Below are positions 15,321 through 34,916 of a stretch of 64,000 nt of DNA, piece by piece (the first letter of the stretch is position 1; each line of letters begins with the position of its first letter). The stretch lies in NCBI RefSeq assembly GCF_057098645.1, contig NZ_CM169472.1. One strand, 5' to 3'. The notes below the pieces were generated by a model, which ran no database searches, had not been told where the DNA came from, and was given only the letters and a program-made list of their open reading frames with translations. The translations under genes and the position numbers were made by a program.

Positions 15321-16982
15321 TTACACCCCGCTAAATTCTTCCAGTTTCTGGCGGTGGCTGTCGCTTATATCAAAAGCAAAATCCTCATGCTCTGCCTGGA
15401 ATGTACCAAACGCCATCAGCGCCGCCACGCTCGGGTCTATCTTGTTCGGTGATTTTTTCTTGTTCGGCTTGATATTGGCGTTCGCGTCACTCTGCATCAC
15501 GACGTTACTCATCGACCAGGACAACACCGGATCGCTACGATGCACAATCACCCTGCGGTTAACAAAAACTTCGAACGATTTCGCCGCCGGACTGAATCTG
15601 AGGTAGGTTTGCGGGAACGGCTCCACCTCAAAGCCTGCCCCCTGTAATTGCGTCCTGAGATGCGTGGCGTTCCACGTATCAAAGCCCACCAGCCTGATAT
15701 TAAATTTCTCCGCATCCTGCATGATGTCATCTCTGATCCGGTCGTAATCAATGCAGTCACCTGGCGTTGTGCGTATCCAGCCCGCTTTAGCCCACTGGCG
15801 ATAGACAGCGCGGTTTTTATTGGCGGGGTTCTGTAGCTGGAACTCCGGCAGATAATGACGGGAAACCAGCATGATATTTTTACCGACCGGAAAGGCATAG
15901 CACACGCTGGAAATATCGCTGGTTGATGATAAGTCCAGCCCCGCGTAACACTCCTGCCCGTGTAAATCTTCCTCCGTGAACGTTCCGGCACACTCAGCCC
16001 ATGCGCCGTTACCCATCCACGGGGTAGCCCCCTGGCACCAGATATTAAATCGCTTTGTCATCATCTCCACCCATTGCGACGGAATACCCCGCGCTTTCTG
16101 GATGGTTGAGGCCAGTTTTTCACGATCCACGGAAACATCGATGTTAGGGTTAGCCTTTATCCACATCGCCGGATCATCAACCTCGTTTTCGTCGTCCAGT
16201 TCGTAAATCAGTACAAAAATTGAATCGTTGACCTCTTCGCCGTCCAGGATCTGGCAGCAATAATCATAGTGCTGCTTACAGGCTGAAACGACGTTACTGC
16301 CCGATGTGGTAATGGCAAATAACAGCCCTTCGGGACGTGCGCCCATCCCCAGCTCAAGCGCGGAATAAACGCCGTTATCGGGGTGTAGGTGGTATTCGTC
16401 CACGATGGAAAGGCTTGGGTTTGTGCCCTCGATGGTTGCCGCTTTTGCTGCCAGCGGCTTTAACAGGCTGTTGCTTTTCGGGTGCATCACCTTGTGGGCC
16501 TGAATATTCACCCGCCTGCGTAACGGTCGGGATAAAAGGCACATCTGACGCGCATCATCAAAAACGATCCGCGCCTGGTCACGGCTCACCGCTGCGGTGT
16601 AAATATCCTGCTGCCCGTTCTCCATAATCAGAAACCAGTTAGCCAGAATCGCGGCGGTCGTGGATTTCGCATTTTTGCGCGGCACTTCGATAAAGGCGCT
16701 CGTGTATTTGCGCCGTCCGGTGGCCTTAACCTTAAAGCCGAGGATGCACGCAAAGGCGAACTGCTGCCACGGCTCCAGCTCAATGGGTCTGCCACGCATC
16801 GGTCCTTTTACGTGCGGGCACACCCTGGAAAAGGCAATAAACCGCTCCACAACCTCACGATCGAACGTGTAAAGGGGGCTTTTAAGGTCCGAAAAGTACC
16901 GTTTAACAGCCTGTTTTAACCGTTTACAGGCCGGAATTTTGCCCGTTTTTACGTCTTCTGCGTACTTATTCCAGGCGGTCAA
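15321..16982 (-). CDS. terL: Terminase large subunit (553 aa)
   Basis: Size and position after TerS; ATPase and nuclease regions typical of phage TerL. Confidence 0.85.
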   Translation of the reverse strand: MTAWNKYAEDVKTGKIPACKRLKQAVKRYFSDLKSPLYTFDREVVERFIAFSRVCPHVKGPMRGRPIELEPWQQFAFACILGFKVKATGRRKYTSAFIEVPRKNAKSTTAAILANWFLIMENGQQDIYTAAVSRDQARIVFDDARQMCLLSRPLRRRVNIQAHKVMHPKSNSLLKPLAAKAATIEGTNPSLSIVDEYHLHPDNGVYSALELGMGARPEGLLFAITTSGSNVVSACKQHYDYCCQILDGEEVNDSIFVLIYELDDENEVDDPAMWIKANPNIDVSVDREKLASTIQKARGIPSQWVEMMTKRFNIWCQGATPWMGNGAWAECAGTFTEEDLHGQECYAGLDLSSTSDISSVCYAFPVGKNIMLVSRHYLPEFQLQNPANKNRAVYRQWAKAGWIRTTPGDCIDYDRIRDDIMQDAEKFNIRLVGFDTWNATHLRTQLQGAGFEVEPFPQTYLRFSPAAKSFEVFVNRRVIVHRSDPVLSWSMSNVVMQSDANANIKPNKKKSPNKIDPSVAALMAFGTFQAEHEDFAFDISDSHRQKLEEFSGV

Positions 16983-17322
16983 GCTCGTCCTCTTCTTCTG
17001 TTTCCGGTGGATTTTTACGGCGGCTTATCGGGTCAAAACCGAGCAAGGAGGCCATTTTTATCATCACTCTTTCAGCGTCGGATTTTGCGCTTAATGCGGG
17101 GTTTCTGCTCTCGCCGCCCTGACTGTTAACAATGCTGAACCCGCGCGCCGCAAGGTCTGCAACGGCTTTCCGGTAAATGGAGTAGTTGACGCAATACAGT
17201 TCCAGATTGCTCCAGTCGGCGGGGGTCAGGTCTCCCCGTTCCGCAAGCTGCCGCGATTTTTCCCGCCACTGCTTCACGGCGATATCATCCAGGTAGGCGG
17301 GGGCTTTCGGTGGTCTTGCCAT
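16966..17322 (-). CDS. terS: Terminase small subunit, P27-family-like (118 aa)
   Basis: Small acidic-C-terminus protein overlapping terL start, downstream of an HNH gene. Confidence 0.75.
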   Translation of the reverse strand: MARPPKAPAYLDDIAVKQWREKSRQLAERGDLTPADWSNLELYCVNYSIYRKAVADLAARGFSIVNSQGGESRNPALSAKSDAERVMIKMASLLGFDPISRRKNPPETEEEDELDRLE

Positions 17323-17444
17323 GCTTATTTTTCGTCAGATTATTTTTCAAAAAATTCCCGTGCATAAAAATTTGAGGAGGCGTTCGGTGCCCGGCGGGGT
17401 CGGGTTTGTCCTGAAAACGCCCCCCACCCCGTCATACAGCCTCA

Positions 17445-17669
17445 TCAGCGATTGCGGAAACATTCCATAACCTCGCGGTCACGGTCGGTTAATCGCTTCG
17501 CTGTGATGCGTTCTGCGCGTCCTGACGCTTTATCTTTATGCCCTGTTTCCTGTGTCTTCCATGCGTCACGCTGCCTTATAAGTCCACGGATAAGGCGGTT
17601 TTGTTCCCGCTCATTCATCAGCGTCATACATCCAGTTATTGCGGTTAGCGGCCCGTTCTTCCTCTTCAT
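17445..17669 (-). CDS. Hypothetical basic protein (74 aa) overlapping the 3-prime end of the HNH gene
   Basis: ATG at 17669 preceded by AGGTGG Shine-Dalgarno (5-nt spacer); out of frame with HNH; start uncertain. Confidence 0.4.
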   Translation of the reverse strand: MKRKNGPLTAITGCMTLMNEREQNRLIRGLIRQRDAWKTQETGHKDKASGRAERITAKRLTDRDREVMECFRNR

Positions 17670-18051
17670 GAAATCCACCTGCGGCACGCTTGCTTTTTGT
17701 TGCCGGATCAAGCCATTTCGTTTTCTGGTTATGACACGCCTGGCACAATGGTTGATGGTTCCATTCGGGCCAGAAGAGAACATCATCACCGCCATTAATC
17801 GGGATAATGTGATCCACCACCACGGCGGGCGTATATATCCCCTTCTCAAGGCATCGCACGCATAACGGGTTTTTACTCAGATACATGGCGCGGTATTTGT
17901 CCCACTGTCTGGAGTACCCACGCGCGCGGCGGTGTCCTCGTCTGGCATCCTCTGCACGCCATGCCGCCCGCCTGTGCTCCTCACACTTGCCGGACTTCAC
18001 GCGCCTGTTACAGCCTGGTTCTGTGCATCGTCTTAATGGTTGCCACGGCAT
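17611..18051 (-). CDS. HNH endonuclease (146 aa), packaging-associated
   Basis: Cys/His-rich motifs (CxxC ... HIIPINGGDD ... CQACHNQK); located just upstream of terS as in HNH-dependent cos packaging. Confidence 0.85.
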   Translation of the reverse strand: MPWQPLRRCTEPGCNRRVKSGKCEEHRRAAWRAEDARRGHRRARGYSRQWDKYRAMYLSKNPLCVRCLEKGIYTPAVVVDHIIPINGGDDVLFWPEWNHQPLCQACHNQKTKWLDPATKSKRAAGGFHEEEERAANRNNWMYDADE

Positions 18052-18347
18052 CAGTACACCCCCACATCACGGTAAGCCGTCCAGAGCGCGCCAATCGTCA
18101 TGGGTACGCGCGTTTTTGCGTTATCCGCTACCAGCTGGCGATTCTCGTACAGGTGAGCGATAAACATCATGCAGCCAATCTTTATGGCTGGCGTGAACTC
18201 CAGCCCGTCATCAAAGCGCCTGCCTATATGTATCTGGCACGCCTCAAGCGATGCGGCAATGTATCCGCTGATTAACTGGTCTTCCTCGTCGCCATCGATG
18301 CGGCAATGGAGTTTCACTTCTTCCAGGGTGATAAGTTCTTCTGTCAT
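18051..18347 (-). CDS. Head-tail connector protein, gp6-like (98 aa)
   Basis: Size, position and sequence character of phage gp6-like connector proteins. Confidence 0.65.
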   Translation of the reverse strand: MTEELITLEEVKLHCRIDGDEEDQLISGYIAASLEACQIHIGRRFDDGLEFTPAIKIGCMMFIAHLYENRQLVADNAKTRVPMTIGALWTAYRDVGVY

Positions 18348-18682
18348 TTTTCCGCGCCCTCACGACAAAGAATTTCAAGGCGTGTCCTGGCGGCATCCGG
18401 CAGCGGCTGCCCGATGATATTCAGTACACGCCCCGCCAGCGGCCCCGTACTGACCTTTATCCGGCTGGTGGCGTTGATGTCCTTCCGGTACCGTATCCAG
18501 ATCCTTACGGTACCAATCGCCAGCTCTGCACCCGATGAAATGGCCTCCTTGCTGCTGATCATGTTCACGCTTGCCCAGAGTGTGTGACCGTCCTCCCACG
18601 TTTCGAGTATTTCGCCGGTTATATCCCTGGTCTGTTTCAGGGTCTGAATCGTTACCCTGTCACGCAGTCGCCCTATGTTCAT
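18344..18682 (-). CDS. Head-tail adaptor / head closure protein (112 aa from MNIGRL)
   Basis: MNIGRLRDRVTIQ... typical of head-tail adaptor family; starts 4 nt inside the portal 3-prime end. Confidence 0.65.
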   Translation of the reverse strand: MNIGRLRDRVTIQTLKQTRDITGEILETWEDGHTLWASVNMISSKEAISSGAELAIGTVRIWIRYRKDINATSRIKVSTGPLAGRVLNIIGQPLPDAARTRLEILCREGAEK

Positions 18683-19890
18683 TCCGGTTTTTCTCCCTCG
18701 CTGATTTTTACTTCCTGTTTCCATGCCTGGCTGAACTCATCACCACCATCACGCGGGGACAGCCCTTCACGTTCGCGGGCTTCGTTCGGGCACATAACGC
18801 CGGATTTGATGCCGCGTTCATAGGTGGCAAAGCGTTCGCCAGGTGTGGCCCGTAACAGGTCCGCGCTGTCAAACTCCACCTGATACCGGATACCAGGTAC
18901 AGGCGAGGCCACCAGCAGGGCGTTTTTTATCTGCTGCTCAAAGTTCGCCAGCCACGGGCGCATCGTCATGGTGAGAAATGCGCGGCTTGCCTCGCTGAAA
19001 TTGCTGTAGGTGCTGTTGCTGTATTCCTGCAAAAAAATCGGCGAGACGTTGAACATTCGGGCGATGTCTTCAATGGTGAAGCGACGGGAGGCCAGCCATT
19101 CAGCATCCTGATTACTCATGCCCAGCTGCTGATAGCTCATACCCCCTTCAAGGATGGGCGTTTTTCCGGCGTTTCTGGCCCCTTTGTAGCGTTCCAGTGC
19201 GGCTAATGCCTGTTTGCCCTTCACGCCGTCCAGCCATTCGCCTGACGTGATAACCCCTGCCGCCATCATGCCATCACGCATCACGCTCGCGCCGTGGCGT
19301 TGTTGGGCCAGCCCAAGCCCCAGCGATTCGCGGCAGATGGTTACAGGTGAGCGCCCCATAAAACCGTCATCCGTGGAGTAACGAAGGTGGAGAACCTCCC
19401 ACGGTAAATAGTTGCGGGTGTTTCCGGTGTAGGCGTCAGTGATGCAGTAGCGCCAGTTGTGTTCGCCTGTCTGCTCCACGTTCACCGACTGCGGCGGGTA
19501 AGGATGTAAAGCCACCGGAAAACCATCACGCCCCCACTGAATCACCGCATAAGCATTACCGTTTAACAGGCAGTGGCGGATCATCATTCGCTTAAACTGG
19601 TAGGGAGTCTGCCACGCGTTCGGGCGCTCGTTGAGGATGTGATCGACCGGATGAGAATCAAGCCACTCTCGGGCCTCCTTCCCCTTCTCATTGCGTACCA
19701 GGTACAGGTAACACGGCATGGTAGCCACCGCCTCAGAGATGACCGTGACGGCGTTCATGACGGCGGGCAGTGATTCCGCTGTCCCCGATGATACGTACTC
19801 ACCCGCCCCCGTGTTCGATGTGCCAGCCAGCGCCATAAACTCATCAAGCGTCATGCTGCGCTGCTCTTTTTTTCTTCTGAAAGGCCACAT
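18679..19890 (-). CDS. Portal protein, HK97 family (403 aa)
   Basis: Size and position between prohead protease and connector genes. Confidence 0.8.
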   Translation of the reverse strand: MWPFRRKKEQRSMTLDEFMALAGTSNTGAGEYVSSGTAESLPAVMNAVTVISEAVATMPCYLYLVRNEKGKEAREWLDSHPVDHILNERPNAWQTPYQFKRMMIRHCLLNGNAYAVIQWGRDGFPVALHPYPPQSVNVEQTGEHNWRYCITDAYTGNTRNYLPWEVLHLRYSTDDGFMGRSPVTICRESLGLGLAQQRHGASVMRDGMMAAGVITSGEWLDGVKGKQALAALERYKGARNAGKTPILEGGMSYQQLGMSNQDAEWLASRRFTIEDIARMFNVSPIFLQEYSNSTYSNFSEASRAFLTMTMRPWLANFEQQIKNALLVASPVPGIRYQVEFDSADLLRATPGERFATYERGIKSGVMCPNEAREREGLSPRDGGDEFSQAWKQEVKISEGEKPE

Positions 19891-19891
19891 A

Positions 19892-20464
19892 TCACACCCC
19901 CGCTAAATCCGCCCACCAGCGGCGATTATCCGCACGCGGCATTTTTTCGGGGTGCTGCTCATACAGGGAACGGCGGGCCAGCTCCACGCCGGAATCGGGG
20001 TAAGCCGGTACCGATGTAACGGTAATTTCGTACAGTTCCGCCACCAGCACGGTGCGCACGCATGGATCTGTTGTGGTATCCCATACATCCTTACGGGAGC
20101 GAAAGCCAAAGCTCATCCCCGAGATGTCCCCACGCTTAACCAGTTCGATAACGTCGCGCCCTGTACTGGTATCCGGTGGGGTCAGTTCAAAGCGTAACCC
20201 TGTTTCGTCCTCTTCCAGTTTCAGCGTGCCGGAACGGGTGCGCCCCAGTAACATGCTGTGGTCATGCTCATACAGGCCGCGAACGTCATTACCCGCCGCA
20301 AGCCATTCAGTAAACGCTCCCCGCTGGAATTTTTCGTAAAACTCACCCCATAGCAGATCAGAAAGGTTATCCCAGCGAACAACGTAGCCTGTAAGCGTGT
20401 TGCTGGCGCTGGTGGTGATTTCCGATGACCGGATTTCCATACTCTTCATAATTTTTTCACCCAT
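19892..20464 (-). CDS. Prohead maturation protease, HK97 family (190 aa)
   Basis: Size and position between major capsid and portal genes. Confidence 0.8.
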   Translation of the reverse strand: MGEKIMKSMEIRSSEITTSASNTLTGYVVRWDNLSDLLWGEFYEKFQRGAFTEWLAAGNDVRGLYEHDHSMLLGRTRSGTLKLEEDETGLRFELTPPDTSTGRDVIELVKRGDISGMSFGFRSRKDVWDTTTDPCVRTVLVAELYEITVTSVPAYPDSGVELARRSLYEQHPEKMPRADNRRWWADLAGV

Positions 20465-20503
20465 AAAACACTAAAGGGGCTTTTAAGCCCCTTCTGTATG
20501 CTG

Positions 20504-21661
20504 TTAATCGTCGTCTTCCGGCAGTTCCAGAATCTTGATCGCGTTCGAATCCACCACGCCACCGCCTAAATATTTTTGCGTGAAAATTTTGATGAATCCT
20601 GGTTCTGTCAGGTTGTCCGGTCTGGTGCGAACACCTGTTTCGTGATCAACAATGTAGTAACCGCGTTTGAAGTCACCCAGGGCAATAACGTTATCAGGCA
20701 TAAACTCCAGATATTCGACCGGAAGGCCCAGCAACGTATCAGGATCACCCGCCTGTAAACGGTCGCGCCAGATATAATCACCGTTCGCGTTCTTCACCTT
20801 CTGAAGTTTTGCCGCCGTCGTGGAGTTAACCACCCAGACCGCGTTTTTGCGGTATTTTTTACGTAATGCAAATTTCAGGTCGATCAGCGGGTCCGCAGAT
20901 GTCCACGCCAGAGATTCGGAAGGTTTAATTACCTGCAACGTACCAAAATCACGCTCTTTGTCGTTCTTCTCTGCACGGGGTACGGATAAAAAACCTTTTG
21001 CTTTTTTGTCACCGTCGCCCACAACCAGATCGCTTTCTTCGGTTTCCGTGAAGGTGTCGCCAATCTCACCCGTCAGCCATGAAAGGATGTCCACATCGGA
21101 AAAATCCACGATTTCCTGTGTGGTGCGCGGGTACGCATAGACCGGATACAGCTTGATGCTCACCTCGTTAATCTGCGGGGTGCTGGTCTGTTCGCGTGCC
21201 TTACCCTCTTCACCGTGGTTAACGGTCGCACCGCCAGCGGAAACAAGCTGCTTAAACTCGTTGCTGCTGATTTTCTTCACGGTACAGATGCGGCGCATGG
21301 TGGATTCATCCGCCAGCATTCGCATGATTTCGGTGTTCAGTTCAGGGATAACGGTATAACCACCATCAGCGGGAACGCCTGTACTTAATGCGCGGGTTTC
21401 ACCTGTCAGAATGTAGTTGCGGAGTTCTGCGGGGTCAGTGGTCTGACTGCTTTTACCTGGCTTGCTGCGCTCTTCGTCTGCAATGGCTTCAAGGCGGGAA
21501 ATGTCTTTATCGAGGGATTCAGCTTTAGCGCGTAATTCGTCAAATTTTGCGCCCTCTGCATCGTTAAGGCTGCGGTTTTCTTTTTCCGCGTTCTCCAGCA
21601 TGTCGCGCATCTGATTTTTAATGGCGGTTTTCTGCTGGCGTAATTCGATTATTCTCGGCAT
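20504..21661 (-). CDS. Major capsid protein, HK97 fold, with N-terminal coiled-coil scaffolding (delta) domain
   Basis: Start taken at MPRIIELRQQ (ATG 21661) because the upstream codons of the 21706 ORF form a terminator hairpin; coiled-coil N-terminus then MCP-like body. Confidence 0.85.
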   Translation of the reverse strand: MPRIIELRQQKTAIKNQMRDMLENAEKENRSLNDAEGAKFDELRAKAESLDKDISRLEAIADEERSKPGKSSQTTDPAELRNYILTGETRALSTGVPADGGYTVIPELNTEIMRMLADESTMRRICTVKKISSNEFKQLVSAGGATVNHGEEGKAREQTSTPQINEVSIKLYPVYAYPRTTQEIVDFSDVDILSWLTGEIGDTFTETEESDLVVGDGDKKAKGFLSVPRAEKNDKERDFGTLQVIKPSESLAWTSADPLIDLKFALRKKYRKNAVWVVNSTTAAKLQKVKNANGDYIWRDRLQAGDPDTLLGLPVEYLEFMPDNVIALGDFKRGYYIVDHETGVRTRPDNLTEPGFIKIFTQKYLGGGVVDSNAIKILELPEDDD

Positions 21662-21699
21662 AAAAAAAAGTCCTGGGGTTAAGTAAGGAACTCCAGGAC
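21662..21699 (-). terminator. Intrinsic terminator immediately upstream of the capsid start codon
   Basis: Minus-strand RNA: GUCCUGG(AGUU)...(AACC)CCAGGAC stem followed by U8 and then AUG. Confidence 0.55.
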
Positions 21700-21751
21700 G
21701 CGGCAAACACTCAACCGTTTTTCATAAGGAAATCAGTAATCGCACCGATCG

Positions 21752-22903: not shown

Positions 22904-23093
22904 CTCACTTTTTCGCCTCACTTTTTCAAGCGTCTCACTTCGTCGCAGTTGGGATTTTCGGTTTTTCTATGTGTGTGTTTCATAAGTATTTTTTTACCCC
23001 TCACTTTTGAGGATGTATACAGGTCGAAAAGTGAGGGAGAGCGGGCTAATTTTGGCCCTCTTTCTATCCCCCTCGCTTTTGCTCCTCACTTTT
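22904..23093. repeat. Iteron array, candidate island replication origin
   Basis: Six direct copies of (C)CTCACTTTT and one inverted copy (AAAAGTGAGG) immediately 3-prime of the rep gene, the last overlapping the rep stop codon. Confidence 0.6.
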
Positions 23094-24492
23094 ATAGCGG
23101 CGCTACATCATCCCCATCGATACGAATAACCCCATCTTTTTCCAGCTTGTACAGCCAGCGCCGGAAGTTTTTCATTTCATACCCCAGCTTTTTCATGTCA
23201 TCACGTAACAGCGGGATCGTGCACTTGTCGCCGTTCTGTGTGCGTGAACGGATGCACCCCCATAGCGCGGTATGGTTTTCCGTCTTGTTCCCTGCCTCCT
23301 CGATGCGCTCCAGTTCAACAGGAGGGCGCGGATCATCCACCACCACCAGCGACGTGATTAATTCACCGTCAGCGTCGGTAAAAAGCTCCACCACGCGTAA
23401 GTCATATGCGGCTTCTTTGAGTTCCTCCGCGTCCTTCATTTTGGTGCATGAGATAACCAGCGCTTCGCTTCCTGCGTCCTCCCTGCGTATCCGGTATTCA
23501 GCATCCAGCGAAGCACGAAATGCACTGGAACCGCGCGCGCCTTTCGTCTCATCCTTGCCGGAATGGTGAACCACCAGCACCGTGGCCCCTGTGCGTCGTT
23601 TCAGTTCGTCACAACCACGGATAAACGCCCCCATATCACGGGAATCATTTTCATCATTCCCACCAAAGCAACGCGCCAGCGTATCCAGAATAATCATGCG
23701 TACAGGTTTACCCGTTTCCCGCTCCACCTGACGGGCAGCGATAACCATTTCATCAACATCAAGCGGGGCAGCCGGAAAGATGGGGCGGTTTACCAGATAC
23801 AGATTTTTCACCTGCTCATCGTGCACAACCTCCCAGGCTTTTACACGACGCGGAACACCTATACCGCCTTCACCAACCACATAGAGAACCGCACCATGTG
23901 CAACCCTGCGGCCTCCCCACTGGCGACCAGTGGCAACATGGCACGCCCACGATCCGGCAAGGAATGATTTATAGGACCCGCTAGCCCCGTATATGCTGCA
24001 TAGCGATACCGCCGGAATAATCCCCTTAACCACGTAATCCAGTTGCGTGTCGTATCCGGTAGATCCAACGCTCATCGGTAGCGTGGTTTTTCGCTGGTGG
24101 TTTTTTTCTTCCGCCGGCTCTTTCCCGCGCACCCGTTCCAGGTATTCGCGCCAGTTCTCCCGCATATGGTTGTGCATCCCTTCGGGGTAATAATTCGCAT
24201 CAGTTACACCCGCCGCCGCCAGCTTGTGCGCAATGGCATTAATATTTGATGGCCTGATGTGGCCTGCCTTGTACAGCCGGACACAATAGCGCCCCTCGTC
24301 GATGATTCTCAGGTCTGCCAGTTCATCCAGTTGATCATCAGCCAGCACAACGGGAGGCACATTATCGCCAGCCAGTCGCCCGTCCTGTTCCTGCCACTGT
24401 TTCGCATGTGCCCAGGCATCACTACCCGCAAAAATAATGACTTCGGTCATCTTGTCGTAAGGCTGTTTTTTTAAGTTCGGTGCGCTTTTCAT
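23092..24492 (-). CDS. Replication initiation protein (primase/helicase-like RecA-fold NTPase, 466 aa)
   Basis: Deviant Walker A (GASGSYKS) and Walker B (MIILDTLARCF) motifs; position between small-gene operon and ori as in PICI pri-rep. Confidence 0.7.
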   Translation of the reverse strand: MKSAPNLKKQPYDKMTEVIIFAGSDAWAHAKQWQEQDGRLAGDNVPPVVLADDQLDELADLRIIDEGRYCVRLYKAGHIRPSNINAIAHKLAAAGVTDANYYPEGMHNHMRENWREYLERVRGKEPAEEKNHQRKTTLPMSVGSTGYDTQLDYVVKGIIPAVSLCSIYGASGSYKSFLAGSWACHVATGRQWGGRRVAHGAVLYVVGEGGIGVPRRVKAWEVVHDEQVKNLYLVNRPIFPAAPLDVDEMVIAARQVERETGKPVRMIILDTLARCFGGNDENDSRDMGAFIRGCDELKRRTGATVLVVHHSGKDETKGARGSSAFRASLDAEYRIRREDAGSEALVISCTKMKDAEELKEAAYDLRVVELFTDADGELITSLVVVDDPRPPVELERIEEAGNKTENHTALWGCIRSRTQNGDKCTIPLLRDDMKKLGYEMKNFRRWLYKLEKDGVIRIDGDDVAPL

Positions 24493-24614
24493 TTCTTGCC
24501 CCTGAATCCGTTAACTGCGTATTCCGCTCTATTCGATCACGGATTGGCATCGAAGTCCGATCAGCGATTCGCATCCATTCGATCAACCGGGAACTTAACT
24601 TTTTCTACCGCTTT

Positions 24615-25370
24615 TTAACGCGTTTTTTCGCTGCTTTCCACTACCGGGGGATTTTTCCTCAGTGACTCTCCCTGAAGGACCACTCGGTGTGAGTTATGTA
24701 CCAGTCTGTCCAGGATGGCATCTGCTGTTGTTGGGTTCTCCATCAGACCATGCCATTTATCTACCGGGAACTGGCTTACCACTATCGTGCTGCTTTGTCC
24801 GTAACGATCCTCTATGAGCTCCAGAAGGTCATTACACTGGGCGTTACTTAACTGTTCCAGCCCCAGATCGTCCAGGATTAGAACCTGTATTTTTTGCAAC
24901 TGTTTCAGATATTTCAGCCAGCTGCCATCAACACGTCCCTGAGCCAGTTGTTCCAGTAATCGCCCGGTTCTACAGTACCGGACGCTGTGTTTCTGTCGAC
25001 ATGCCTGTTCGCCCAGCGCATTGGCTATCCAGCTCTTGCCACATCCTGTCGGACCGGTTATCAGCAGGTTTTTCCTGTGGGTTATGTAGTGGCCGTTCAG
25101 CAGTTCTCTCATCTGTTCAGCCCGCAGACCTCTTGAGGCCGGATAGCGCAGCCCTTCCGGTGTTGCCTGGTATTTCAGGCCGGCATTTTTTCTCAACCGT
25201 GCCACACGGCTGTTTTCCCTGCTCAGAAGCTCGTCATCAACCAGCAGCGTCAGCCTTTCCTCGAACGACAGTTCGTCGTAGGTCTGAGGCGTTTCCCGCT
25301 GCCGTATCAGGCTCCCGGCCATCGCCGGGAGTTTCAGTTGGGTCAGTTTGTTTAACAGGTTATCACTCAT
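24615..25370 (-). CDS. istB: IS21-family helper ATPase IstB
   Basis: Walker A GPTGCGKS and typical IstB architecture; start taken at MSDNLLNKL. Confidence 0.85.
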   Translation of the reverse strand: MSDNLLNKLTQLKLPAMAGSLIRQRETPQTYDELSFEERLTLLVDDELLSRENSRVARLRKNAGLKYQATPEGLRYPASRGLRAEQMRELLNGHYITHRKNLLITGPTGCGKSWIANALGEQACRQKHSVRYCRTGRLLEQLAQGRVDGSWLKYLKQLQKIQVLILDDLGLEQLSNAQCNDLLELIEDRYGQSSTIVVSQFPVDKWHGLMENPTTADAILDRLVHNSHRVVLQGESLRKNPPVVESSEKTR

Positions 25371-25386
25371 ACTGTTGTTCCTTCTG

Positions 25387-26952
25387 TCAGTGGTAGTAGC
25401 CCGGACCACGCAGGTTTTCATGCTCTGAAGCATATGCCGGATGTTGTTCGCCCTGGCGGGATAATGGAAGCTCCAGGTTCTCCCGATGGTGACGCAGCAG
25501 ATTGTCGATAAAGCGTCTGTCAGGGGCGTTATAGTGCAGGGCAACGTAACAGGCCTTTTCCAGCCGTTCCGGGCCGTATTTTTTCTGAAGTGCCAGCAGC
25601 CCCAGAACTGCACGATAAGCCAGTTCCGGATGGGGTTTTGCCTTCAGCATGGATTCAACCACCCGGCCTGTGGACGGGCCCGTACGTTTTCCCTGCTCGA
25701 TCAGGCGTTCCGGTGTCCATGTCCCGTGCTGCCGGTGGCGCTCTGGCATGTGAAGCGGATTGGTTGTGTGTTTATATTCATGTGTGCTGCGCGGATGTTG
25801 CGCCACACACTGCCCCTTGTGCCAGAGCTGTACCACCGACTGCCCCGCCTTCAGTGACAGACGCTGACCGACCAGTTCGTGTGGAACGGAGTACCAGTGA
25901 CGGGCATATTCAACGTGGTAGTCAGGGCCAACCTTCACAGCTTTGTATTCCGTGTATTCATAAGGTGCCAGAGGCAGCGGAGAGAGTGCTGGCGCATCCA
26001 GTATGCGGAAGCGTTCTGCACGGGTTTGATTGCCGTACCCCTTCATTGGCCGGTTATTCATGTCTGTCAGTAACTCCCTAAGGCGCGCATTCAGCGCCCT
26101 GAGCGTGTGGAAGGTTTCATTACGGATGCGGGCAAGAAGCCATCGTTCAACGATGAGGACGCCGTTTTCTGCTTTTGGTTTATCTTTAGGTTTGCGTGGT
26201 CGGGCCGGGATGATAACCGTGCCATAGTGCTCAGCCAGTGCCTGATAACTGTCGTTGATGACAGGCTCATATCGATCGGCCTTTTTCACTGCGCTTCTGA
26301 GGTTATCGGGGATGAGCAGCTTCGGTACGCCGCCCAGGAAGGTCAGGCAACGGCTGTGGGCATTTAACCATGACATCATGTCCTGACCTTCGCACGCTTC
26401 AACGTAGGTATAGTTGGACGCCCCCATTACGGCCACGAAGATTGCCACGCGGCGTATCTCACCGGTGTCCGGATTAATAACAGGAACCGTAGGACCACAG
26501 AAGTCGATAAAAAGCTTTTCGCCGGCACGATGCTCCTGGCGCATGGAGAGACGTCGCGTTTTTTTCCACTCCCGGTAGCAACGGCAGAAGTGCGAGTATC
26601 CCATCGCTTTGTTACCCGCCTGTGCCTTGTATTCCATCCACAACAGTTGCCGCGTCACACCTGGTTTTCTCATTTCCGTATCGAAGTACAACATGTCAGG
26701 CATTACAAGCTCTGATGCAAAGGTGTCTTTGGGCGGAAAAATGAGTTTCTCCAGCGTGTCATGGGATATATCAGCAGGTAATGGCCATGACAGAGAAGAG
26801 GCTTTGAAGCGGGCAAGAACCTCAAAAACGGTTGAGGCGCTGATGTGTAACGTCAGTCCGATACAACGGTTAGTCAGCTTCTTGTCGAACTTGAGCTGAA
26901 GGATCTTAAAACAGGTTTCCATAGTGCTCCTGGATTTTCTCTTTCTGGACAT
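25387..26952 (-). CDS. istA: IS21-family transposase IstA
   Basis: N-terminal HTH then DDE integrase core; start ambiguous (26922, 26952 or 27033). Confidence 0.8.
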   Translation of the reverse strand: MSRKRKSRSTMETCFKILQLKFDKKLTNRCIGLTLHISASTVFEVLARFKASSLSWPLPADISHDTLEKLIFPPKDTFASELVMPDMLYFDTEMRKPGVTRQLLWMEYKAQAGNKAMGYSHFCRCYREWKKTRRLSMRQEHRAGEKLFIDFCGPTVPVINPDTGEIRRVAIFVAVMGASNYTYVEACEGQDMMSWLNAHSRCLTFLGGVPKLLIPDNLRSAVKKADRYEPVINDSYQALAEHYGTVIIPARPRKPKDKPKAENGVLIVERWLLARIRNETFHTLRALNARLRELLTDMNNRPMKGYGNQTRAERFRILDAPALSPLPLAPYEYTEYKAVKVGPDYHVEYARHWYSVPHELVGQRLSLKAGQSVVQLWHKGQCVAQHPRSTHEYKHTTNPLHMPERHRQHGTWTPERLIEQGKRTGPSTGRVVESMLKAKPHPELAYRAVLGLLALQKKYGPERLEKACYVALHYNAPDRRFIDNLLRHHRENLELPLSRQGEQHPAYASEHENLRGPGYYH

Positions 26953-27137
26953 TGACGTCTCCACTGGTTTAAACACGGCAATGGAGACTGTGGTGAAAAG
27001 AGTTAATTCCCGGAGTGACTGGCAGGATGCCAATCAATGATCGGAAGCATGCCAAATCGTGATCGATTGTGATGCCAAACTGTGATCGGAGATGGATGCC
27101 AAATCATGATCGATTCGAATGCCAAACTGCGATCGAT

Positions 27138-27434
27138 TCAGATGCCATTTTGCACGTTAACCATGGTTTTCAGCTTCTGGATGTTTGCCCGTGCCCTGGC
27201 GTTGCTGGTGGGCACGTTATGCGGCGCGGTCTGTACCAGAGAAAAATCACGCCGGAACTGATAAACAGGCATCACGCAATCATATTCGTAACCTTCACGG
27301 CGGTAAGTTACGCACCGTCCCGCCACGCCCTTAATCATTACCGTGCCGCCGTACTGGTCGCGGTAAATATCACCGCGCGTAAATTTAGGGTGAGTGTTGC
27401 CACTGGCAGTTAAGCCAGAATATTTAAGTTTCAT
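27138..27434 (-). CDS. Hypothetical protein (98 aa); last 6 codons replaced by IS21 end sequence
   Basis: Before the IS21 insertion this gene would end ...KLKTMVNGFRGKK with its TGA overlapping the rep ATG (24490-24492). Confidence 0.5.
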   Translation of the reverse strand: MKLKYSGLTASGNTHPKFTRGDIYRDQYGGTVMIKGVAGRCVTYRREGYEYDCVMPVYQFRRDFSLVQTAPHNVPTSNARARANIQKLKTMVNVQNGI

Positions 27435-27439
27435 TATTT

Positions 27440-27673
27440 TTATTCTCCGGTGTGCTGTTCTTTATATCTGTCGTGCAATAGATCTATTTTTTGCAGTTCC
27501 ATTATTACAGGCTCAAGTAGCGTTATTAATGCCGTGGCAATTCTTGATTTTTGTTTGTCGCGTTCATTATCTCCAAGCGTGTCAAGCCATATGCGCAATA
27601 TTTCCAGCATGTTTTCACTGTGAGAAAGTGCAAGAAATGCGCGGTCTATTGTTTCAAGGTAAATATCACGCAT
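27440..27673 (-). CDS. Hypothetical protein (77 aa)
   Basis: Coupled ORF (5-bp gap to next gene, 1-nt gap after previous stop). Confidence 0.5.
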   Translation of the reverse strand: MRDIYLETIDRAFLALSHSENMLEILRIWLDTLGDNERDKQKSRIATALITLLEPVIMELQKIDLLHDRYKEQHTGE

Positions 27674-27674
27674 A

Positions 27675-27896
27675 TTAATCCCCGTCCGTCGTTTTTCTTA
27701 AAACAACTTCTGTCACGAAATCAGCATAGTTAGCGGCAATATCAAGAATATTTAGCCCTGTATCCCTGTGCTCATCAGTGCAAAGAAAGAAAAAAGCCAC
27801 CAGCATAATTTCAGATATTGACGAAAGCGCATCAGCCGCATCATCAGGAACGCCGGAAAATTCCTGTTTCAGGGAATTAAAACGATCATCACGCAT
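27675..27896 (-). CDS. Hypothetical protein (73 aa)
   Basis: First ORF of the three-gene set upstream of rep. Confidence 0.45.
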   Translation of the reverse strand: MRDDRFNSLKQEFSGVPDDAADALSSISEIMLVAFFFLCTDEHRDTGLNILDIAANYADFVTEVVLRKTTDGD

Positions 27897-27929
27897 AACC
27901 CCGTTACTTTATTCGTACCCCTTATAATG

Positions 27930-28129
27930 GGGTGTTAGCCAGCCAGACCCGGCATGATTACTGCCCCCAGTCGTCCATGATCCGGGGGGTGATGTCACCG
28001 GGTCTGGTGGGGCGCTGGTAACCGCTAATAGGGGTCAGGTCAGGCACTTTTGCCGGGACCGTCTGTAACGTGGATGCCGGTACCTGCTCCCCGTGGTTAT
28101 CTGGTTAACCCATATACAAGGGAGACAGA
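27930..28129 (+). ncRNA. Candidate IS110-type bridge (guide) RNA in the 5-prime non-coding end
   Basis: Structured GC-rich non-coding flank upstream of the recombinase, where IS110-group elements encode their bridge RNA; not verified by folding. Confidence 0.25.
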
Positions 28130-29326
28130 ATGACCGAATCCAGCGATTACGAATCCGTCCAGGTCTTTATCGGCGTTGATGTCGGTAAAGATACGCATCA
28201 CGCTGTAGCCATTAATCGTTCAGGTAAACGCCTGTTCGATAAAGCATTACCCAACGACGAAAACAAACTCAGGTCGCTAATATCTGACCTGAAACAACAT
28301 GGTCAGATACTGCTGGTTGTTGATCAGCCAGCTACCATCGGTGCGTTACCTGTCGCCGTTGCCCGCTCAGAAGGAGTCCTTGTCGGATACCTCCCTGGAC
28401 TGGCCATGCGCCGCATAGCCGACTTACACGCCGGTGAAGCTAAAACTGATGCTCGTGACGCTGCCATCATTGCCGAAGCTGCCCGTACCCTGCCTCACGC
28501 GCTACGCACGCTGAAACTGGCTGACGAGCAAATCGCCGAACTCTCCATGCTCTGCGGCTTCGATGATGATCTTGCCGCACAGACAACGCAGGCCAGCAAC
28601 CGTATCCGCGGCCTTCTGACCCAGATACATCCGGCACTGGAGCGCGTTCTCGGTCCGAGACTTGATCACCCGGCGGTACTCGATCTTCTCCAGCGATATC
28701 CCTCACCAGAAAAACTCGCTTCGCTGGGTGAGAAGAAGCTGGCAGCCCAGCTCTGCAAACTTGCGCCTCGTCTGGGTAAACGCCTTGCAGCAGACATAGC
28801 TCAGGCACTGGCCGAACAAACCGTCGTCGTTCCCGGCACGAATGCCGCTGCCGTAGTACTGCCACGTCTGGCACTCCAGCTCATCACGCTGCGTAAGCAA
28901 AGAGACGAGGTGGTGCTTGAGGTAGAACAGCGAGTTCTTGCTCACCCTCTTTACCCGGTCCTGACCAGTATGCCCGGAGTCGGTGTCAGGACCGCAGCCA
29001 GACTCCTCACCGAGGTCGCCTGCCGCGCCTTCGCCTCTGCCGCACATCTCGCTGCTTATGCTGGCCTTGCGCCGGTAACTCGGCGATCCGGCTCGTCAAT
29101 ACGCGGTGAGCATCCCTCGCGACGGGGTAATAAAGCTCTCAAACGGGCGTTGTTCCTGTCGGCCTTCGCCGCGCTCAGGGATCCGCTCTCCAGGGCTTAC
29201 TACACCCGCAAAATGAGTCAGGGAAAACGACACAATCAGGCGCTTATCGCCCTGGCGAGACGACGCTGCGACGTTCTGTTCGCCATGATGCGCGACGGGA
29301 CTTTTTATACCCCGCAGGCGTCATAA
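28130..29326 (+). CDS. IS110-family transposase/recombinase (398 aa)
   Basis: N-terminal IGVDVGKDTHHAVAIN (RuvC-like DEDD) motif and C-terminal serine-containing domain. Confidence 0.85.
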   Translation: MTESSDYESVQVFIGVDVGKDTHHAVAINRSGKRLFDKALPNDENKLRSLISDLKQHGQILLVVDQPATIGALPVAVARSEGVLVGYLPGLAMRRIADLHAGEAKTDARDAAIIAEAARTLPHALRTLKLADEQIAELSMLCGFDDDLAAQTTQASNRIRGLLTQIHPALERVLGPRLDHPAVLDLLQRYPSPEKLASLGEKKLAAQLCKLAPRLGKRLAADIAQALAEQTVVVPGTNAAAVVLPRLALQLITLRKQRDEVVLEVEQRVLAHPLYPVLTSMPGVGVRTAARLLTEVACRAFASAAHLAAYAGLAPVTRRSGSSIRGEHPSRRGNKALKRALFLSAFAALRDPLSRAYYTRKMSQGKRHNQALIALARRRCDVLFAMMRDGTFYTPQAS

Positions 29327-29339
29327 CATGCTTGACAAC

Positions 29340-29561
29340 TTAATAGGGGCACCCCCCATTTTCACAATCAGCAATAAGAATATTTTTAGCGTCATTCAGC
29401 GACCGCGTGGCGGTGTATCGGATACATTCCAGGGCGAACTGTGTCCGGTCTTTCTGTTCTTCTCCCTGCGCAAGCTCTGCAGTGCATTCAATATCGATAA
29501 GCGCGTGCATCAGCGTAGTGAGCGCGGCGGCTGCTGCGTCCGGTGTGGTTTTATTGCACAT
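29340..29561 (-). CDS. Hypothetical Cys-containing protein (73 aa, MCNKTTPDAAAAALTTLMHALIDIECTAEL...)
   Basis: AGGAGG Shine-Dalgarno 8 nt upstream; ATG overlaps the end of the preceding gene by 11 bp; stop is 14 nt from the IS110 transposase stop. Confidence 0.5.
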   Translation of the reverse strand: MCNKTTPDAAAAALTTLMHALIDIECTAELAQGEEQKDRTQFALECIRYTATRSLNDAKNILIADCENGGCPY

Positions 29562-29751
29562 GGCACACCTCCTGACGAATACGGGCGGCGAATACAGCAA
29601 CACAACCGGACGGGCAACGGCTACGCGCTTCGCGTTCCGTCCAGGCGGTTACGTGGATGATTTGAGATTCTCCGGCACTCAGTGCCAGAAAACGCCACAC
29701 AAAGGCCGTTTGTGTGTGTACAAGGTGTGGTATATGATTTACAGCAACCAT
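29551..29751 (-). CDS. Hypothetical Cys/His-rich protein (66 aa, MVAVNHIPHLVHTQTAFVWRF...CPSGC...CHVQ)
   Basis: AGGAG Shine-Dalgarno 5 nt upstream of ATG; first gene of the leftward small-gene operon. Confidence 0.55.
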   Translation of the reverse strand: MVAVNHIPHLVHTQTAFVWRFLALSAGESQIIHVTAWTEREARSRCPSGCVAVFAARIRQEVCHVQ

Positions 29752-29780
29752 AACGGCTCCTAGTTTACGTTGTTGGTTAG

Positions 29781-29825
29781 AAGCCCTGCGAGTGGTAACG
29801 ACACTTGCGGGGCTTTGTCTTTTCA
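29781..29825 (+). terminator. Strong hairpin with U-rich tail, best formed on plus-strand RNA
   Basis: 14-bp stem AAGCCCUGCGAGUG/CACUUGCGGGGCUU with two G-U pairs on the plus strand (C-A mismatches on the minus strand), followed by UGUCUUUUC. Confidence 0.45.
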
Positions 29826-29845
29826 TCGATTACCTTGATAAAGGT

Positions 29846-29924
29846 GTCAGCCACTATATTAGTAACGGGTGTCAGCCACGTCAATAGTGTTTTTCCGTTT
29901 TCTTGTGTGTATACTGTCAGCCAC
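29846..29924 (+). promoter_or_regulatory. Three direct repeats TGTCAGCCAC (29846, 29870, 29915) overlapping the promoter of the RHH gene
   Basis: Exact 10-bp repeats; the third overlaps a TATACT -10-like hexamer about 30 bp upstream of the RHH start. Confidence 0.5.
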
Positions 29925-29945
29925 CTAATAACGAGGAAATCAGAT

Positions 29946-30125
29946 ATGGCAACAAAAGCAGTTAATGCAAAATCCAAAAAGCTTGAGGCTCGAGTACCAC
30001 ACGCAATAGCTGATGCTGTAGAAAATTTAAAGGAAGATGGCGAAAGTACAGGGCAATTTATCGTTTCGGCACTTGAAGGCGAGATCAAACGCCGCCAGCG
30101 CCGCAAGGCCAAAGAATCAGAATAA
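29946..30125 (+). CDS. Ribbon-helix-helix (CopG/Arc-like) DNA-binding protein (59 aa)
   Basis: MATKAVNAKSKKLEARVPHAIADAVENLKEDGESTGQFIVSALEGEIKRRQ: beta-strand then two helices pattern; plus strand, divergent from the small-gene operon. Confidence 0.6.
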   Translation: MATKAVNAKSKKLEARVPHAIADAVENLKEDGESTGQFIVSALEGEIKRRQRRKAKESE

Positions 30126-30167
30126 TCACTATCAGCGCCGTGGTGTGAGGTATTACGGCGCATTGCT

Positions 30168-30625: not shown

Positions 30626-30814
30626 TTAATGAACTGCCTTGCAGCTATCCTTCCAGGCCAGAACCTCGGATAAAGACCAGCCAACGGAACGACCGCCAAG
30701 TTTACGACGTGATGGGAATTGTCCGGCCTTTTCCAGGCGGTAGCGACACGTACGGCTAAGGCCGGTTAGTTTTTCGCATTCTTTTTCACGTATAAACCGA
30801 TCAGTGCTTAACAC
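30626..30814 (-). CDS. alpA: AlpA-family phage regulatory protein (62 aa)
   Basis: LTGLSRTCRYRLEKAGQFPSRRKLGGRSVGWSLSEVLAW matches the AlpA/Xis-like HTH family pattern. Confidence 0.8.
   Translation of the reverse strand: MLSTDRFIREKECEKLTGLSRTCRYRLEKAGQFPSRRKLGGRSVGWSLSEVLAWKDSCKAVH

Positions 30815-33524: not shown

Positions 33525-34916
<1,392 letters not shown>

What the first reader, a model, noticed from the sequence alone, without database searches (positions are those of the whole stretch)
27138..27896. Three tightly coupled small ORFs of unknown function immediately upstream of rep
Genes of 73, 77 and 98 aa are separated by 1-5 bp, and the last originally overlapped the rep start (ATGA). 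None matches a family I recognise. Their position between the regulatory region and the replication gene is where satellites often carry helper-interference or accessory functions.
Basis: inference. Interest (0 to 1): 0.45.

Follow-up and report, generated by a model that had tools for sequence, protein, structure and literature searches.

The report
Satellite early genes including RgdR regulator
These three small genes are a conserved stretch of the early operon of an E. coli phage satellite (a capsid-forming PICI), cut off here from its promoter and its replication gene by two insertion sequences; the third gene is the already published regulator RgdR, so the finding is largely ordinary.

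Summary
The three ORFs are real and lie on the minus strand: 27896-27675 (73 aa), 27673-27440 (77 aa) and 27434-27138 (98 aa). They are spaced by 1 and 5 nt. The inferred ATGA overlap with rep is correct once an ISSso4 insertion (24516-27154, TSD CGTTAAC) is removed.

They are not a separate three-gene unit. They form the distal part of the early operon of an EcCIEDL933-like capsid-forming PICI: alpA, icd-like, variable small genes, orfB, rgdR, rep. About 1,360 of 5,426 complete E. coli genomes carry related sequence.

ORF3 is a DUF4222 protein and the positional orthologue of RgdR (ECs1581), a published regulator of type III secretion and motility. Here it has lost its conserved C-terminal six residues to the IS. 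ORF1 and ORF2 are Escherichia/Shigella-restricted acidic helical proteins with no detectable homologues of known function. ORF2-like genes sit directly upstream of rgdR in 56 of 60 PICI loci.

New context: across satellites and lambdoid prophages the DUF4222 gene almost always overlaps the start of the replication-initiator gene by 4 nt, whatever the initiator type. An unannotated DUF4222 ORF also lies out of frame inside E. coli K-12 ymfM.

This copy is probably inactive. Interest is low.

The parts
27675..27896 (-). orfA: 73 aa, acidic (pI 4.2), Escherichia/Shigella-restricted family (phrog_24341; aligns to residues 78-146 of the 154-aa phrog_2512).
   Evidence: dN/dS is 0.36-0.54. In the O157 island L002 it is fused to the preceding ORF as one 154-aa protein, through a G7 rather than G8 tract. 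No Pfam, NCBIfam, PADLOC or PDB match.
27440..27673 (-). orfB: 77 aa, acidic (pI 5.1), phrog_2196; predicted two-helix hairpin.
   Evidence: AlphaFold2 gives pLDDT 93.7 with helices 2-32 and 37-75. Foldseek against PDB finds nothing at E<0.001. An exhaustive HMMER search of 1.84 billion representatives gives only 11 hits. dN/dS is 0.12-0.34. It is 27% identical to ECs1580, the gene just upstream of rgdR in Sakai Sp7. An orfB-like gene lies 5 nt upstream of DUF4222 in 56 of 60 PICI loci.
27138..27434 (-). orfC: IS-truncated rgdR (DUF4222). Native codons 1-93 are 27434-27156. The last 5 codons and the stop (27155-27138) are read across the junction into ISSso4.
   Evidence: Pfam DUF4222 E=2e-23. 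It is 99% identical over 93 aa to WP_000770163.1 (L001) and 76% to ECs1581 RgdR. The RGD motif is at residues 20-22. AlphaFold2 predicts a 5-strand SH3/Tudor-like barrel (residues 21-70, pLDDT>90) plus a C-terminal helix 77-96.
24489..24508 (-). Displaced 3' end of rgdR (GFRGKK*), carrying the rep ribosome-binding site and the ATGA stop/start overlap.
   Evidence: Reconstructed by removing the IS and one copy of the target duplication. It matches the intact junctions in L001, L002 and L004.
24516..27154 (-). ISSso4-like IS21-family element (istA 27033..25387, istB 25613..24615), flanked by the 7-bp target duplication CGTTAAC (24509-24515 and 27155-27161).
23092..24492 (-). rep: 466-aa RepA-type helicase (AAA_25), now separated from its operon by the IS.
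27903..29351 (+). ISEc20 (IS110 family; transposase 28130-29326), inserted in the poly-G/C tract just upstream of orfA. Boundaries are approximate within the C runs.
29340..29561 (-). 'up1': the next coupled small ORF upstream. Its last 3 codons are replaced by ISEc20 sequence. In intact relatives it overlaps orfA by 8 nt or is fused to it.
29551..29826 (-). Icd-like gene (NF033153), an early gene of the operon.
30626..30814 (-). alpA (Phage_AlpA), the published activator of the PICI cycle.
   Evidence: PMC6092414.
31189..32418 (-). Tyrosine integrase at the tqsA-side end of the island.
15321..21706 (-). Capsid-forming packaging module: terL, terS, HNH, connector, head completion protein, portal, protease, capsid.
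   Evidence: It is 97.6% identical to Sakai Sp7 (OI-51, EcCIEDL933) over 6.9 kb.

Best explanation
The three ORFs are the distal part of the early operon of an EcCIEDL933-like capsid-forming PICI. The operon runs alpA, icd-like, a variable set of small genes, orfB, rgdR, rep. AlpA, induced by a helper phage, switches on the PICI cycle (published).

Shown here:
- orfC is rgdR. It is predicted as a basic protein (pI about 10) with a disordered N-terminus, a Tudor/SH3-like barrel and a basic C-terminal helix.
- Its stop codon is built into the start codon of the replication initiator.

Inferred:
- RgdR-family proteins are made together with the initiator at the onset of element replication. They act as non-sequence-specific DNA- or protein-binding co-factors of the early/replication module.
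- The published effects on LEE1, motility and Congo-red binding are spill-over of that activity on host transcription.
- orfB, an acidic helical hairpin almost always encoded 5 nt upstream of rgdR in PICIs, is most likely a binding partner or modulator of RgdR.
- orfA is a fast-evolving, mosaic accessory protein. In some islands it is fused to the preceding gene through a slippery G tract. Its target is unknown.

In this window the system is broken. ISEc20 separates the three genes from the alpA-side promoter region. ISSso4 replaces the near-invariant C-terminal GFRGKK of RgdR and uncouples rep. This copy is therefore probably not expressed normally, and the island is probably replication-defective.
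For: Identity and operon structure:
- Intact relatives show the uninterrupted run Icd-like, 1-5 small ORFs, orfB-like, DUF4222, replicase, next to int and alpA.
- Sakai ECs_1581 (RgdR) occupies the same position and overlaps the ECs_1582 primase by 4 nt.
[quoted passage not shown] RgdR is 99 aa, pI 10.09, binds DNA non-specifically, activates LEE1, represses motility and raises Congo-red binding (PMC3378721).

Coupling to replication:
- In 89 of 91 loci the DUF4222 stop overlaps the next gene's start by 4 nt.
- That next gene is an AAA_25 RepA helicase, a D5_N/DUF5906 primase-helicase, a DUF927 protein or an HTH_36/Phg_2220_C O/DnaD-like initiator.
- Named phages (YeP3, PSTCR8lys, SKA5, Flotzy, e14) show cro, cII..., DUF4222, replication protein.

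Fold.

orfB-rgdR pairing. The prophage DUF4222 proteins (about 59 aa) lack both the C-terminal helix and an orfB neighbour.

Damage in this copy. FRGKK is nearly invariant in 22 RgdR sequences.
Against: - No experiment links RgdR, orfB or orfA to replication or to each other. The pairing argument is synteny only.
- Tight gene packing with 4-nt overlaps is common in phage operons.
- In SfV-like and Stx phages an Ash or antirepressor-like gene, and another small ORF, lie between DUF4222 and the initiator. L033 is another such exception.
- The same RgdR protein (WP_000770163.1) sits upstream of different replicase types. This argues against an initiator-specific partner, although those replicases share an N-terminal region of about 125 aa.
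- The FRGKK conservation may reflect the rep ribosome-binding site rather than protein function.
- Read-through from the IS elements could still express the three genes and rep.
Confidence: 0.6

Rival explanations
1. Helper-interference or anti-phage accessory genes. The small proteins would bind helper-phage proteins to block or redirect helper development, as P4 epsilon or Sid and SaPI interference proteins do.
For: They sit in a satellite's early operon. orfA and orfB are acidic, fast-evolving, mosaic and restricted to Escherichia/Shigella satellites. That pattern fits arms-race proteins. They are absent from GenBank phages.
Against: There are no PADLOC hits and no similarity to any P4 protein. 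The paper that defined E. coli PICIs looked for EcCICFT073 interference among genes downstream of rep (c1499, c1500), whose deletion did not affect island transfer; it does not mention the early small ORFs in this connection (PMC6092414). DUF4222 also occurs in ordinary lambdoid phages, where interference with a helper makes no sense.
Confidence: 0.15
2. RgdR is a dedicated host-virulence regulator: a cargo gene that activates LEE1 and represses motility, with no role in the satellite's own cycle. orfA and orfB would be unrelated fillers.
For: Deletion and complementation in EHEC change type III secretion, adherence and sheep colonisation. The activity depends on residue 20 of the RGD motif, which this copy keeps (PMC3378721).
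Against: The family is present in LEE-negative UPEC and commensal strains. It also occurs in Klebsiella, Yersinia, Providencia and Salmonella phages. R20 is not conserved among PICI RgdRs. The gene is hard-wired to the initiator start codon.
Confidence: 0.2
3. RgdR-family proteins act on core host machinery. They could be RNA-polymerase-binding modulators (a Tudor-like domain plus a basic helix, as in CarD), H-NS antagonists, or cell-division inhibitors (the SfiC/YmfM phenotype of e14).
For: - From my own knowledge of hns mutants, the published phenotypes (LEE up, motility down, curli/Congo red up) resemble loss of H-NS silencing.
- An unannotated DUF4222 ORF lies inside the DNA fragment whose expression causes YmfM filamentation.
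Against: The fold scores are in the range where any small barrel matches. No filamentation was reported for RgdR in the text read. No binding data exist.
Confidence: 0.15
4. The ORFs are chance reading frames or dead pseudogene debris with no protein products.
For: In this window they are cut off from promoter and operon by two IS elements. The promoter scan is at chance level (7 found against 4.3 expected).
Against: They are conserved in hundreds of genomes with dN/dS well below 1. There is a Pfam domain. AlphaFold2 gives confident folds. A family member has a published protein phenotype.
Confidence: 0.03

Closest known systems
RgdR (ECs1581) of E. coli O157:H7 Sakai Sp7 / OI-51 (CP-933C)
   Same: DUF4222 domain, RGD at residues 20-22, 99 aa once reconstructed and basic. 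It lies directly upstream of the island's replicase and overlaps it by 4 nt. Overall identity is 76%, with a near-identical core.
   Different: This copy has lost its last six residues (GFRGKK) to ISSso4 and is uncoupled from rep. It precedes a RepA-type helicase rather than a primase-type replicase. Its activity on LEE and motility is untested.
EcCIEDL933 and related capsid-forming PICIs (Penades laboratory)
   Same: int, alpA and rep plus a full capsid and packaging module without tails. The packaging module is 97.6% identical to Sakai Sp7, and the whole element is 98.2% identical to the island of strain 14EC001.
   Different: It carries two IS insertions (ISEc20, ISSso4). Its flanks come from two different attachment sites: phoQ on one side and tqsA/pntB on the other.
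Phage P4 cnr (ORF106, DUF5375) upstream of the alpha primase
   Same: A small gene placed immediately upstream of the satellite's replication gene in the early operon. From my own knowledge, Cnr modulates alpha and copy number.
   Different: There is no sequence or profile similarity (hhalign probability 0.1%; phmmer). The predicted fold class differs (helical against barrel). It is a positional analogue only.
Tudor-like RNA-polymerase-interacting domains (UvrD/PcrA C-terminal domain, CarD/CdnL N-terminal domain) and DUF1653
   Same: A five-stranded small barrel of about 50 residues. CarD also combines the barrel with a basic DNA-contacting helical part (DUF1653 matches).

Membership tests
DUF4222 / RgdR family | Match to Pfam PF13973 above the gathering score | tested here: met
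   82.1 bits against a cut-off of 27. ECs1581 itself scores 82.0 bits.
DUF4222 / RgdR family | RGD tripeptide at residues 20-22, which gave the protein its name | tested here: met
   T19-R20-G21-D22 in orfC. R20 varies among PICI homologues, while G21 and D22 are invariant.
DUF4222 / RgdR family | Full-length 99-aa protein with the conserved C-terminal helix and FRGKK tail | tested here: not met
   The window copy ends ...MVN-VQNGI*, with IS-derived residues. The reconstructed pre-insertion gene does meet the feature.
DUF4222 / RgdR family | Gene immediately upstream of the island's replicase gene, with a 4-nt overlap | tested here: met
   Met after removing ISSso4. The same holds in 89 of 91 related loci and for ECs_1581/ECs_1582.
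DUF4222 / RgdR family | Activates LEE1 and type III secretion, and represses motility | not testable with these tools
   Published for ECs1581 and C1493 only (PMC3378721).
Gram-negative PICI / capsid-forming PICI | int, alpA and a pri/rep gene co-oriented in a small island at a specific attachment site | tested here: met
   The island is about 14 kb without the two IS elements. Integration sites match those in L001, L004 (tqsA) and L002, L093 (roxA/phoQ).
Gram-negative PICI / capsid-forming PICI | Own capsid, protease, portal, connectors and terminase, but no tail or lysis genes | tested here: met
   Pfam assignments. The element ends at phoQ directly after terL and one small ORF.
Gram-negative PICI / capsid-forming PICI | Helper-phage-induced excision, replication and transfer | not testable with these tools
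   Probably lost here, because rep is uncoupled and the flanks are chimeric (inference).
P4 Cnr (DUF5375) | Sequence or profile homology to P4 ORF106 | tested here: not met
   hhalign probability 0.1%. phmmer bit scores are below 5.
Known anti-phage defence proteins (PADLOC) | Match to any PADLOC-DB model | tested here: not met
   No hits at E<=1 for the three ORFs or their upstream neighbours.
CarD/TRCF/UvrD Tudor-like RNA-polymerase-interacting domains | Structural match strong enough to imply homology | tested here: inconclusive

The most novel reading that the evidence does not exclude
DUF4222/RgdR proteins may be a widespread and frequently unannotated class of small Tudor-like proteins. 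Their gene is hard-wired to the start of the replication-initiator gene in lambdoid phages and PICIs of Enterobacterales. They would act on core host machinery (RNA polymerase, nucleoid proteins or FtsZ) when element replication starts. On this reading the 'virulence regulator' RgdR and the e14 'cell division inhibitor YmfM/SfiC' are two views of one family. The ymfM phenotype would come from the nested out-of-frame DUF4222 ORF, and orfB would be the PICI-specific partner of the RgdR C-terminal helix.
Probability: 0.2. Interest if true: 0.6.

Novelty: already known. Interest (0 to 1): 0.27.

Why it matters
For the window itself it matters little. This is a decayed copy of a common E. coli satellite, and its best-characterised gene was named in 2011.

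The comparative by-products are more useful.

1. The native role of RgdR in the satellite has never been defined. Its invariant translational coupling to replication initiators of four unrelated types, in satellites and in true phages, gives a concrete and testable place to look.

2. orfB emerges as a conserved companion gene of rgdR in PICIs.

3. DUF4222 genes are often missed or masked by longer out-of-frame ORF calls. This includes ymfM in E. coli K-12 e14, and it could change which protein is credited with the SfiC division-inhibition phenotype.

Tried and rejected
- NCBIfam and PADLOC scans of the three ORFs and their neighbours gave nothing.
- PDB sequence-profile searches found nothing below E=0.3 for RgdR, orfB or orfA.
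- tblastn of the three window proteins against GenBank phages gave one weak hit for orfC and none for orfA or orfB. The shorter prophage DUF4222 query was needed to reach phages.
- An exhaustive HMMER search with orfB found only 11 near relatives.
- The idea that orfA and orfB are diverged paralogues (both start with MRD) was rejected: hhalign probability 0.4%.
- Similarity to P4 epsilon, ORF151, cnr or any other P4 protein was rejected.
- A c4-like antisense RNA upstream of the icd-like gene, by analogy with P1 immI, was sought. There was no Rfam hit at gathering score and only chance-level hits at E<=1.
- The promoter and terminator scan of 27000-31200 was at chance level, so it says nothing about expression of the orphaned genes.
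- The genome-contig scan with the RgdR alignment used overly strict patterns and returned one locus, E. albertii.
- The afdb50 fold library was not available.
- K-12 YmfM as a DUF4222 protein in its annotated frame was rejected. The match is in another frame.

Full report
OBSERVATION

The three ORFs are on the minus strand: orfA 27896..27675 (73 aa), orfB 27673..27440 (77 aa) and orfC 27434..27138 (98 aa). orfA and orfB are separated by a single T between TAA and ATG. orfB and orfC are separated by 5 nt.

Megablast of 27138-27930 against 5,426 complete E. coli genomes matches 1,364 of them, and 785 contain at least 80% of the query. In every case the match covers only window 27155-27902. The sequence on either side is therefore foreign.

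- On the rep side lies a 2,639-bp ISSso4-like IS21-family element (24516-27154) with a 7-bp target duplication, CGTTAAC.
- On the other side lies ISEc20, an IS110-family element at about 27903-29351.

Removing ISSso4 and one copy of the duplication restores ...ACC ATG GTT AAC GGA TTC AGG GGC AAG AAA TGA. This is a 99-aa protein ending GFRGKK, whose stop lies inside the ATGA of rep (24492). The same junction is seen in intact relatives. The last five codons (VQNGI) and the stop of the 98-aa ORF, however, are IS sequence.

ARE THEY GENES?

Yes.

- RefSeq annotates the same CDSs in relatives.
- Against diverged relatives, dN/dS is 0.12-0.34 for orfB, about 0.4 for orfC and 0.36-0.54 for orfA.
- orfC carries Pfam DUF4222 (82 bits against a cut-off of 27).
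- AlphaFold2 gives confident folds for orfB (pLDDT 93.7) and for the orfC core (pLDDT above 90 for residues 21-70).

WHAT THE ELEMENT IS

Reading the minus strand, the island has an integrase (32418-31189), AlpA (30814-30626), an Icd-like gene (29826-29551), the small ORFs and a RepA-type helicase (24492-23092). These are followed by SSB, then capsid, protease, portal, head completion protein, connector, HNH, terS and terL (21706-15321).

This is the architecture of capsid-forming PICIs, whose prototype is EcCIEDL933 (bioRxiv 10.1101/2022.09.08.507074).

- The packaging module is 97.6% identical to Sakai prophage-like element Sp7 (OI-51).
- The whole island is 98.2% identical to one in strain 14EC001.
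- In E. coli PICIs, AlpA is the helper-induced activator of the island's genes (PMC6092414).

THE TRIO IS PART OF A LONGER OPERON

Ten annotated E. coli relatives (L001, L002, L004-L010, L093) and the E. albertii locus L003 all show the same pattern. An Icd-like gene is followed by one to five small overlapping ORFs that vary in number and identity, then a DUF4222 gene, then the replicase.

In the window, ISEc20 has landed in a homopolymeric G tract 6 nt upstream of the orfA ATG. It clips the last three codons of a fourth coupled ORF, 'up1' (29561..29340).

That tract is G8 in L001, L004 and L007, where up1 and orfA are separate with an 8-nt overlap. It is G7 in the O157 island L002, where they form one 154-aa ORF. 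It is G9 in L005, which PGAP flags as frameshifted. In L006 and L008, orfA follows a different upstream gene, so it can be an independent cistron.

ORF3 IS RgdR

Sakai ECs_1581 is the protein named RgdR. It lies at the equivalent position and overlaps the ECs_1582 primase by 4 nt.

The window protein is 76% identical to ECs1581, and the core (residues 20-68) is almost unchanged. It keeps the RGD motif at residues 20-22.

Published work describes RgdR as follows (PMC3378721):
- 99 aa, pI 10.09;
- activates LEE1 and type III secretion;
- represses motility;
- raises Congo-red binding;
- binds DNA without sequence specificity.

Among 22 PICI homologues, R20 is variable while G21, D22 and the C-terminal FRGKK are nearly invariant. 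The window copy has lost that tail.

STRUCTURE

RgdR is predicted to have a disordered N-terminus, a five-stranded SH3/Tudor-like barrel (residues 23-68) and a basic C-terminal helix (residues 77-96).

- KOW domains.

BFVD returns DUF1653 and uncharacterised phage proteins. These are leads, not family assignments.

orfB is predicted as a two-helix hairpin with no informative structural neighbour.

ORF1 AND ORF2

Neither has a Pfam, NCBIfam, PADLOC or PDB match. PHROGs lists both as families of unknown function. Homologues are confined to Escherichia and Shigella. A full HMMER scan of 1.84 billion representatives finds 11 hits for orfB.

orfB is nevertheless distantly related to the gene immediately upstream of rgdR in other PICIs, with a shared WL..L..NERD motif. 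These include ECs1580 (27% identity) and the equivalents in L009 and L010. An HMM of these sequences recognises the ORF immediately upstream of DUF4222 (5 nt in nearly all cases) in 56 of 60 PICI-type loci. orfB, rgdR and rep therefore form a conserved triad, whereas orfA and up1 belong to the variable part.

orfA is mosaic. Its N-terminal 26 residues are identical across the relatives compared, its middle is diverged, and it has two alternative C-terminal tails.

A WIDER PATTERN

A pattern scan of IMG/VR with a DUF4222 alignment returned 80 loci. About 50 were PICI-sized contigs and 30 were contigs mostly of 40-50 kb from lambdoid prophages. These were analysed together with the earlier loci.

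In 89 of 91 loci the DUF4222 stop overlaps the next gene's start by exactly 4 nt (ATGA or GTGA). The other two loci are cut by contig ends. The downstream gene falls into these types:
- a RepA-type AAA_25 helicase;
- a D5_N/DUF5906/Pox_D5 primase-helicase;
- a DUF927 protein;
- an HTH_36/Phg_2220_C (DnaD/O-like) initiator;
- in one lineage (L033), an Ash-family gene followed by the initiator.

In the prophages the gene order is cro, cII (CP76), a small ORF, an antirepressor-like gene, DUF4222, then the initiator.

tblastn with the 59-aa prophage version finds 115 GenBank phage records.
- YeP3, PSTCR8lys, SKA5 and Flotzy place DUF4222 directly before the replication or primosomal protein (in PSTCR8lys a 353-aa hypothetical gene that it overlaps by 4 nt).
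- SfV and an Stx2a phage have one or two genes in between.

The PICI replicases of all three helicase types share an N-terminal region of about 125 aa. An identical RgdR protein (WP_000770163.1) upstream of different replicases therefore does not exclude an interaction with them.

MECHANISM

Shown:
- the operon context;
- the coupling of rgdR to the initiator start codon;
- the predicted folds;
- the damage in this copy.

Inferred:
- RgdR-family proteins are produced together with the initiator. They act as a non-specific DNA- or protein-binding co-factor of the early/replication module, and the EHEC phenotypes are spill-over on host transcription.
- orfB is a partner of the PICI-specific C-terminal helix of RgdR. 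The helix-less 59-aa prophage proteins have no orfB neighbour.
- orfA is an accessory protein of unknown target.

I put the identity part at about 0.95 and the mechanistic part at about 0.3.

In this window ISEc20 separates the genes from the alpA-side promoter region. ISSso4 truncates RgdR and uncouples rep. The copy is therefore probably silent or mis-expressed.

COMPARISON AND NOVELTY

The closest known things are RgdR itself and the EcCIEDL933 early operon. P4 cnr is only a positional analogue, with no similarity. No evidence supports helper interference. The finding as written is already known biology in a degraded copy.

SIDE OBSERVATION

In E. coli K-12 e14 the DUF4222 ORF is unannotated. 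It lies out of frame inside the 3' half of ymfM (NC_000913.3 1204001-1204180).

- It has a TTG start with AAGGAG 7 nt upstream.
- It encodes 59 aa and scores 67 bits against DUF4222.
- It overlaps the start of the ymfN/oweE replication gene by 11 nt.
- The five nucleotide differences between K-12 and phage SKA5 in the overlap are all synonymous in the DUF4222 frame and all non-synonymous in the ymfM frame.

The ymfM filamentation study expressed the whole ORF, and I found no frame-specific mutants in its text. Similar out-of-frame masking appears in SfV orf37, an Stx2a phage 'antirepressor' and Flotzy CDS0060.

Noticed in passing
L094 5002-5181 (= NC_000913.3 1204001-1204180), E. coli K-12 e14 prophage: An unannotated 59-aa DUF4222 ORF (TTG start, AAGGAG 7 nt upstream, 67 bits) lies out of frame inside the 3' half of ymfM ('cell division inhibitor YmfM'). 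It overlaps the ymfN/oweE replication gene start by 11 nt. All 5 nucleotide differences from phage SKA5 in the overlap are synonymous in the DUF4222 frame and non-synonymous in the ymfM frame. The published filamentation phenotype could therefore belong to either ORF.
   Followed up: partly
window 27899-27902 and 29352-29357; L001 9743-9750; L002, L004, L005, L007 equivalents: A homopolymeric G tract sits just upstream of the orfA ATG. It is G7 (up1 and orfA fused into one 154-aa ORF), G8 (two overlapping ORFs) or G9 (PGAP 'frameshifted') in different islands. This could be a slippage-prone fission/fusion point or a sequencing artefact. ISEc20 is inserted exactly in this tract in the window.
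   Followed up: partly
window 12899-14359 (phoQ) and 32616-34913 (tqsA remnant, pntB): The island's two flanks come from different chromosomal attachment sites: roxA/phoQ on the terL side and tqsA/pntB on the int side. No complete E. coli genome has both in one place. The gene orientations fit a large inversion by recombination between two inversely oriented PICIs.
   Followed up: partly
window 24118-24492 (N-terminal about 125 aa of rep); L001, L003, L045, L073 replicases: PICI replicases with three unrelated helicase modules (AAA_25 RepA, D5_N/DUF5906 primase-helicase, DUF927) share one conserved N-terminal region of about 125 aa that has no Pfam match. This points to domain shuffling just downstream of the rgdR/rep junction.
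   Followed up: partly
proteins P0053 (126 aa, 36 contigs) and P0172 (78 aa, 18 contigs): Public assemblies contain in-frame orfA-orfB fusion and chimera proteins: the orfA N-terminus joined to whole orfB, or to the orfB C-terminus. Recurrent deletions therefore seem to occur between these two adjacent genes.
   Followed up: no
L095 2501-2650 (SfV orf37), L099 1801-1950 (Stx2a_WGPS2 'antirepressor'), L100 1501-1668 (Flotzy CDS0060): The DUF4222 match lies in a different reading frame from the annotated CDS that covers it. DUF4222 genes appear to be systematically masked by over-long neighbouring ORF calls in phage annotations.
   Followed up: partly
window 29777-30568 (minus strand): A 263-aa ORF lies between alpA and the icd-like gene. 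It has no Pfam match and is annotated inconsistently in relatives (hypothetical protein, or partial 'Icd-like' pseudogene). This may be a non-coding regulatory region rather than a gene. No Rfam family matches it.
   Followed up: no
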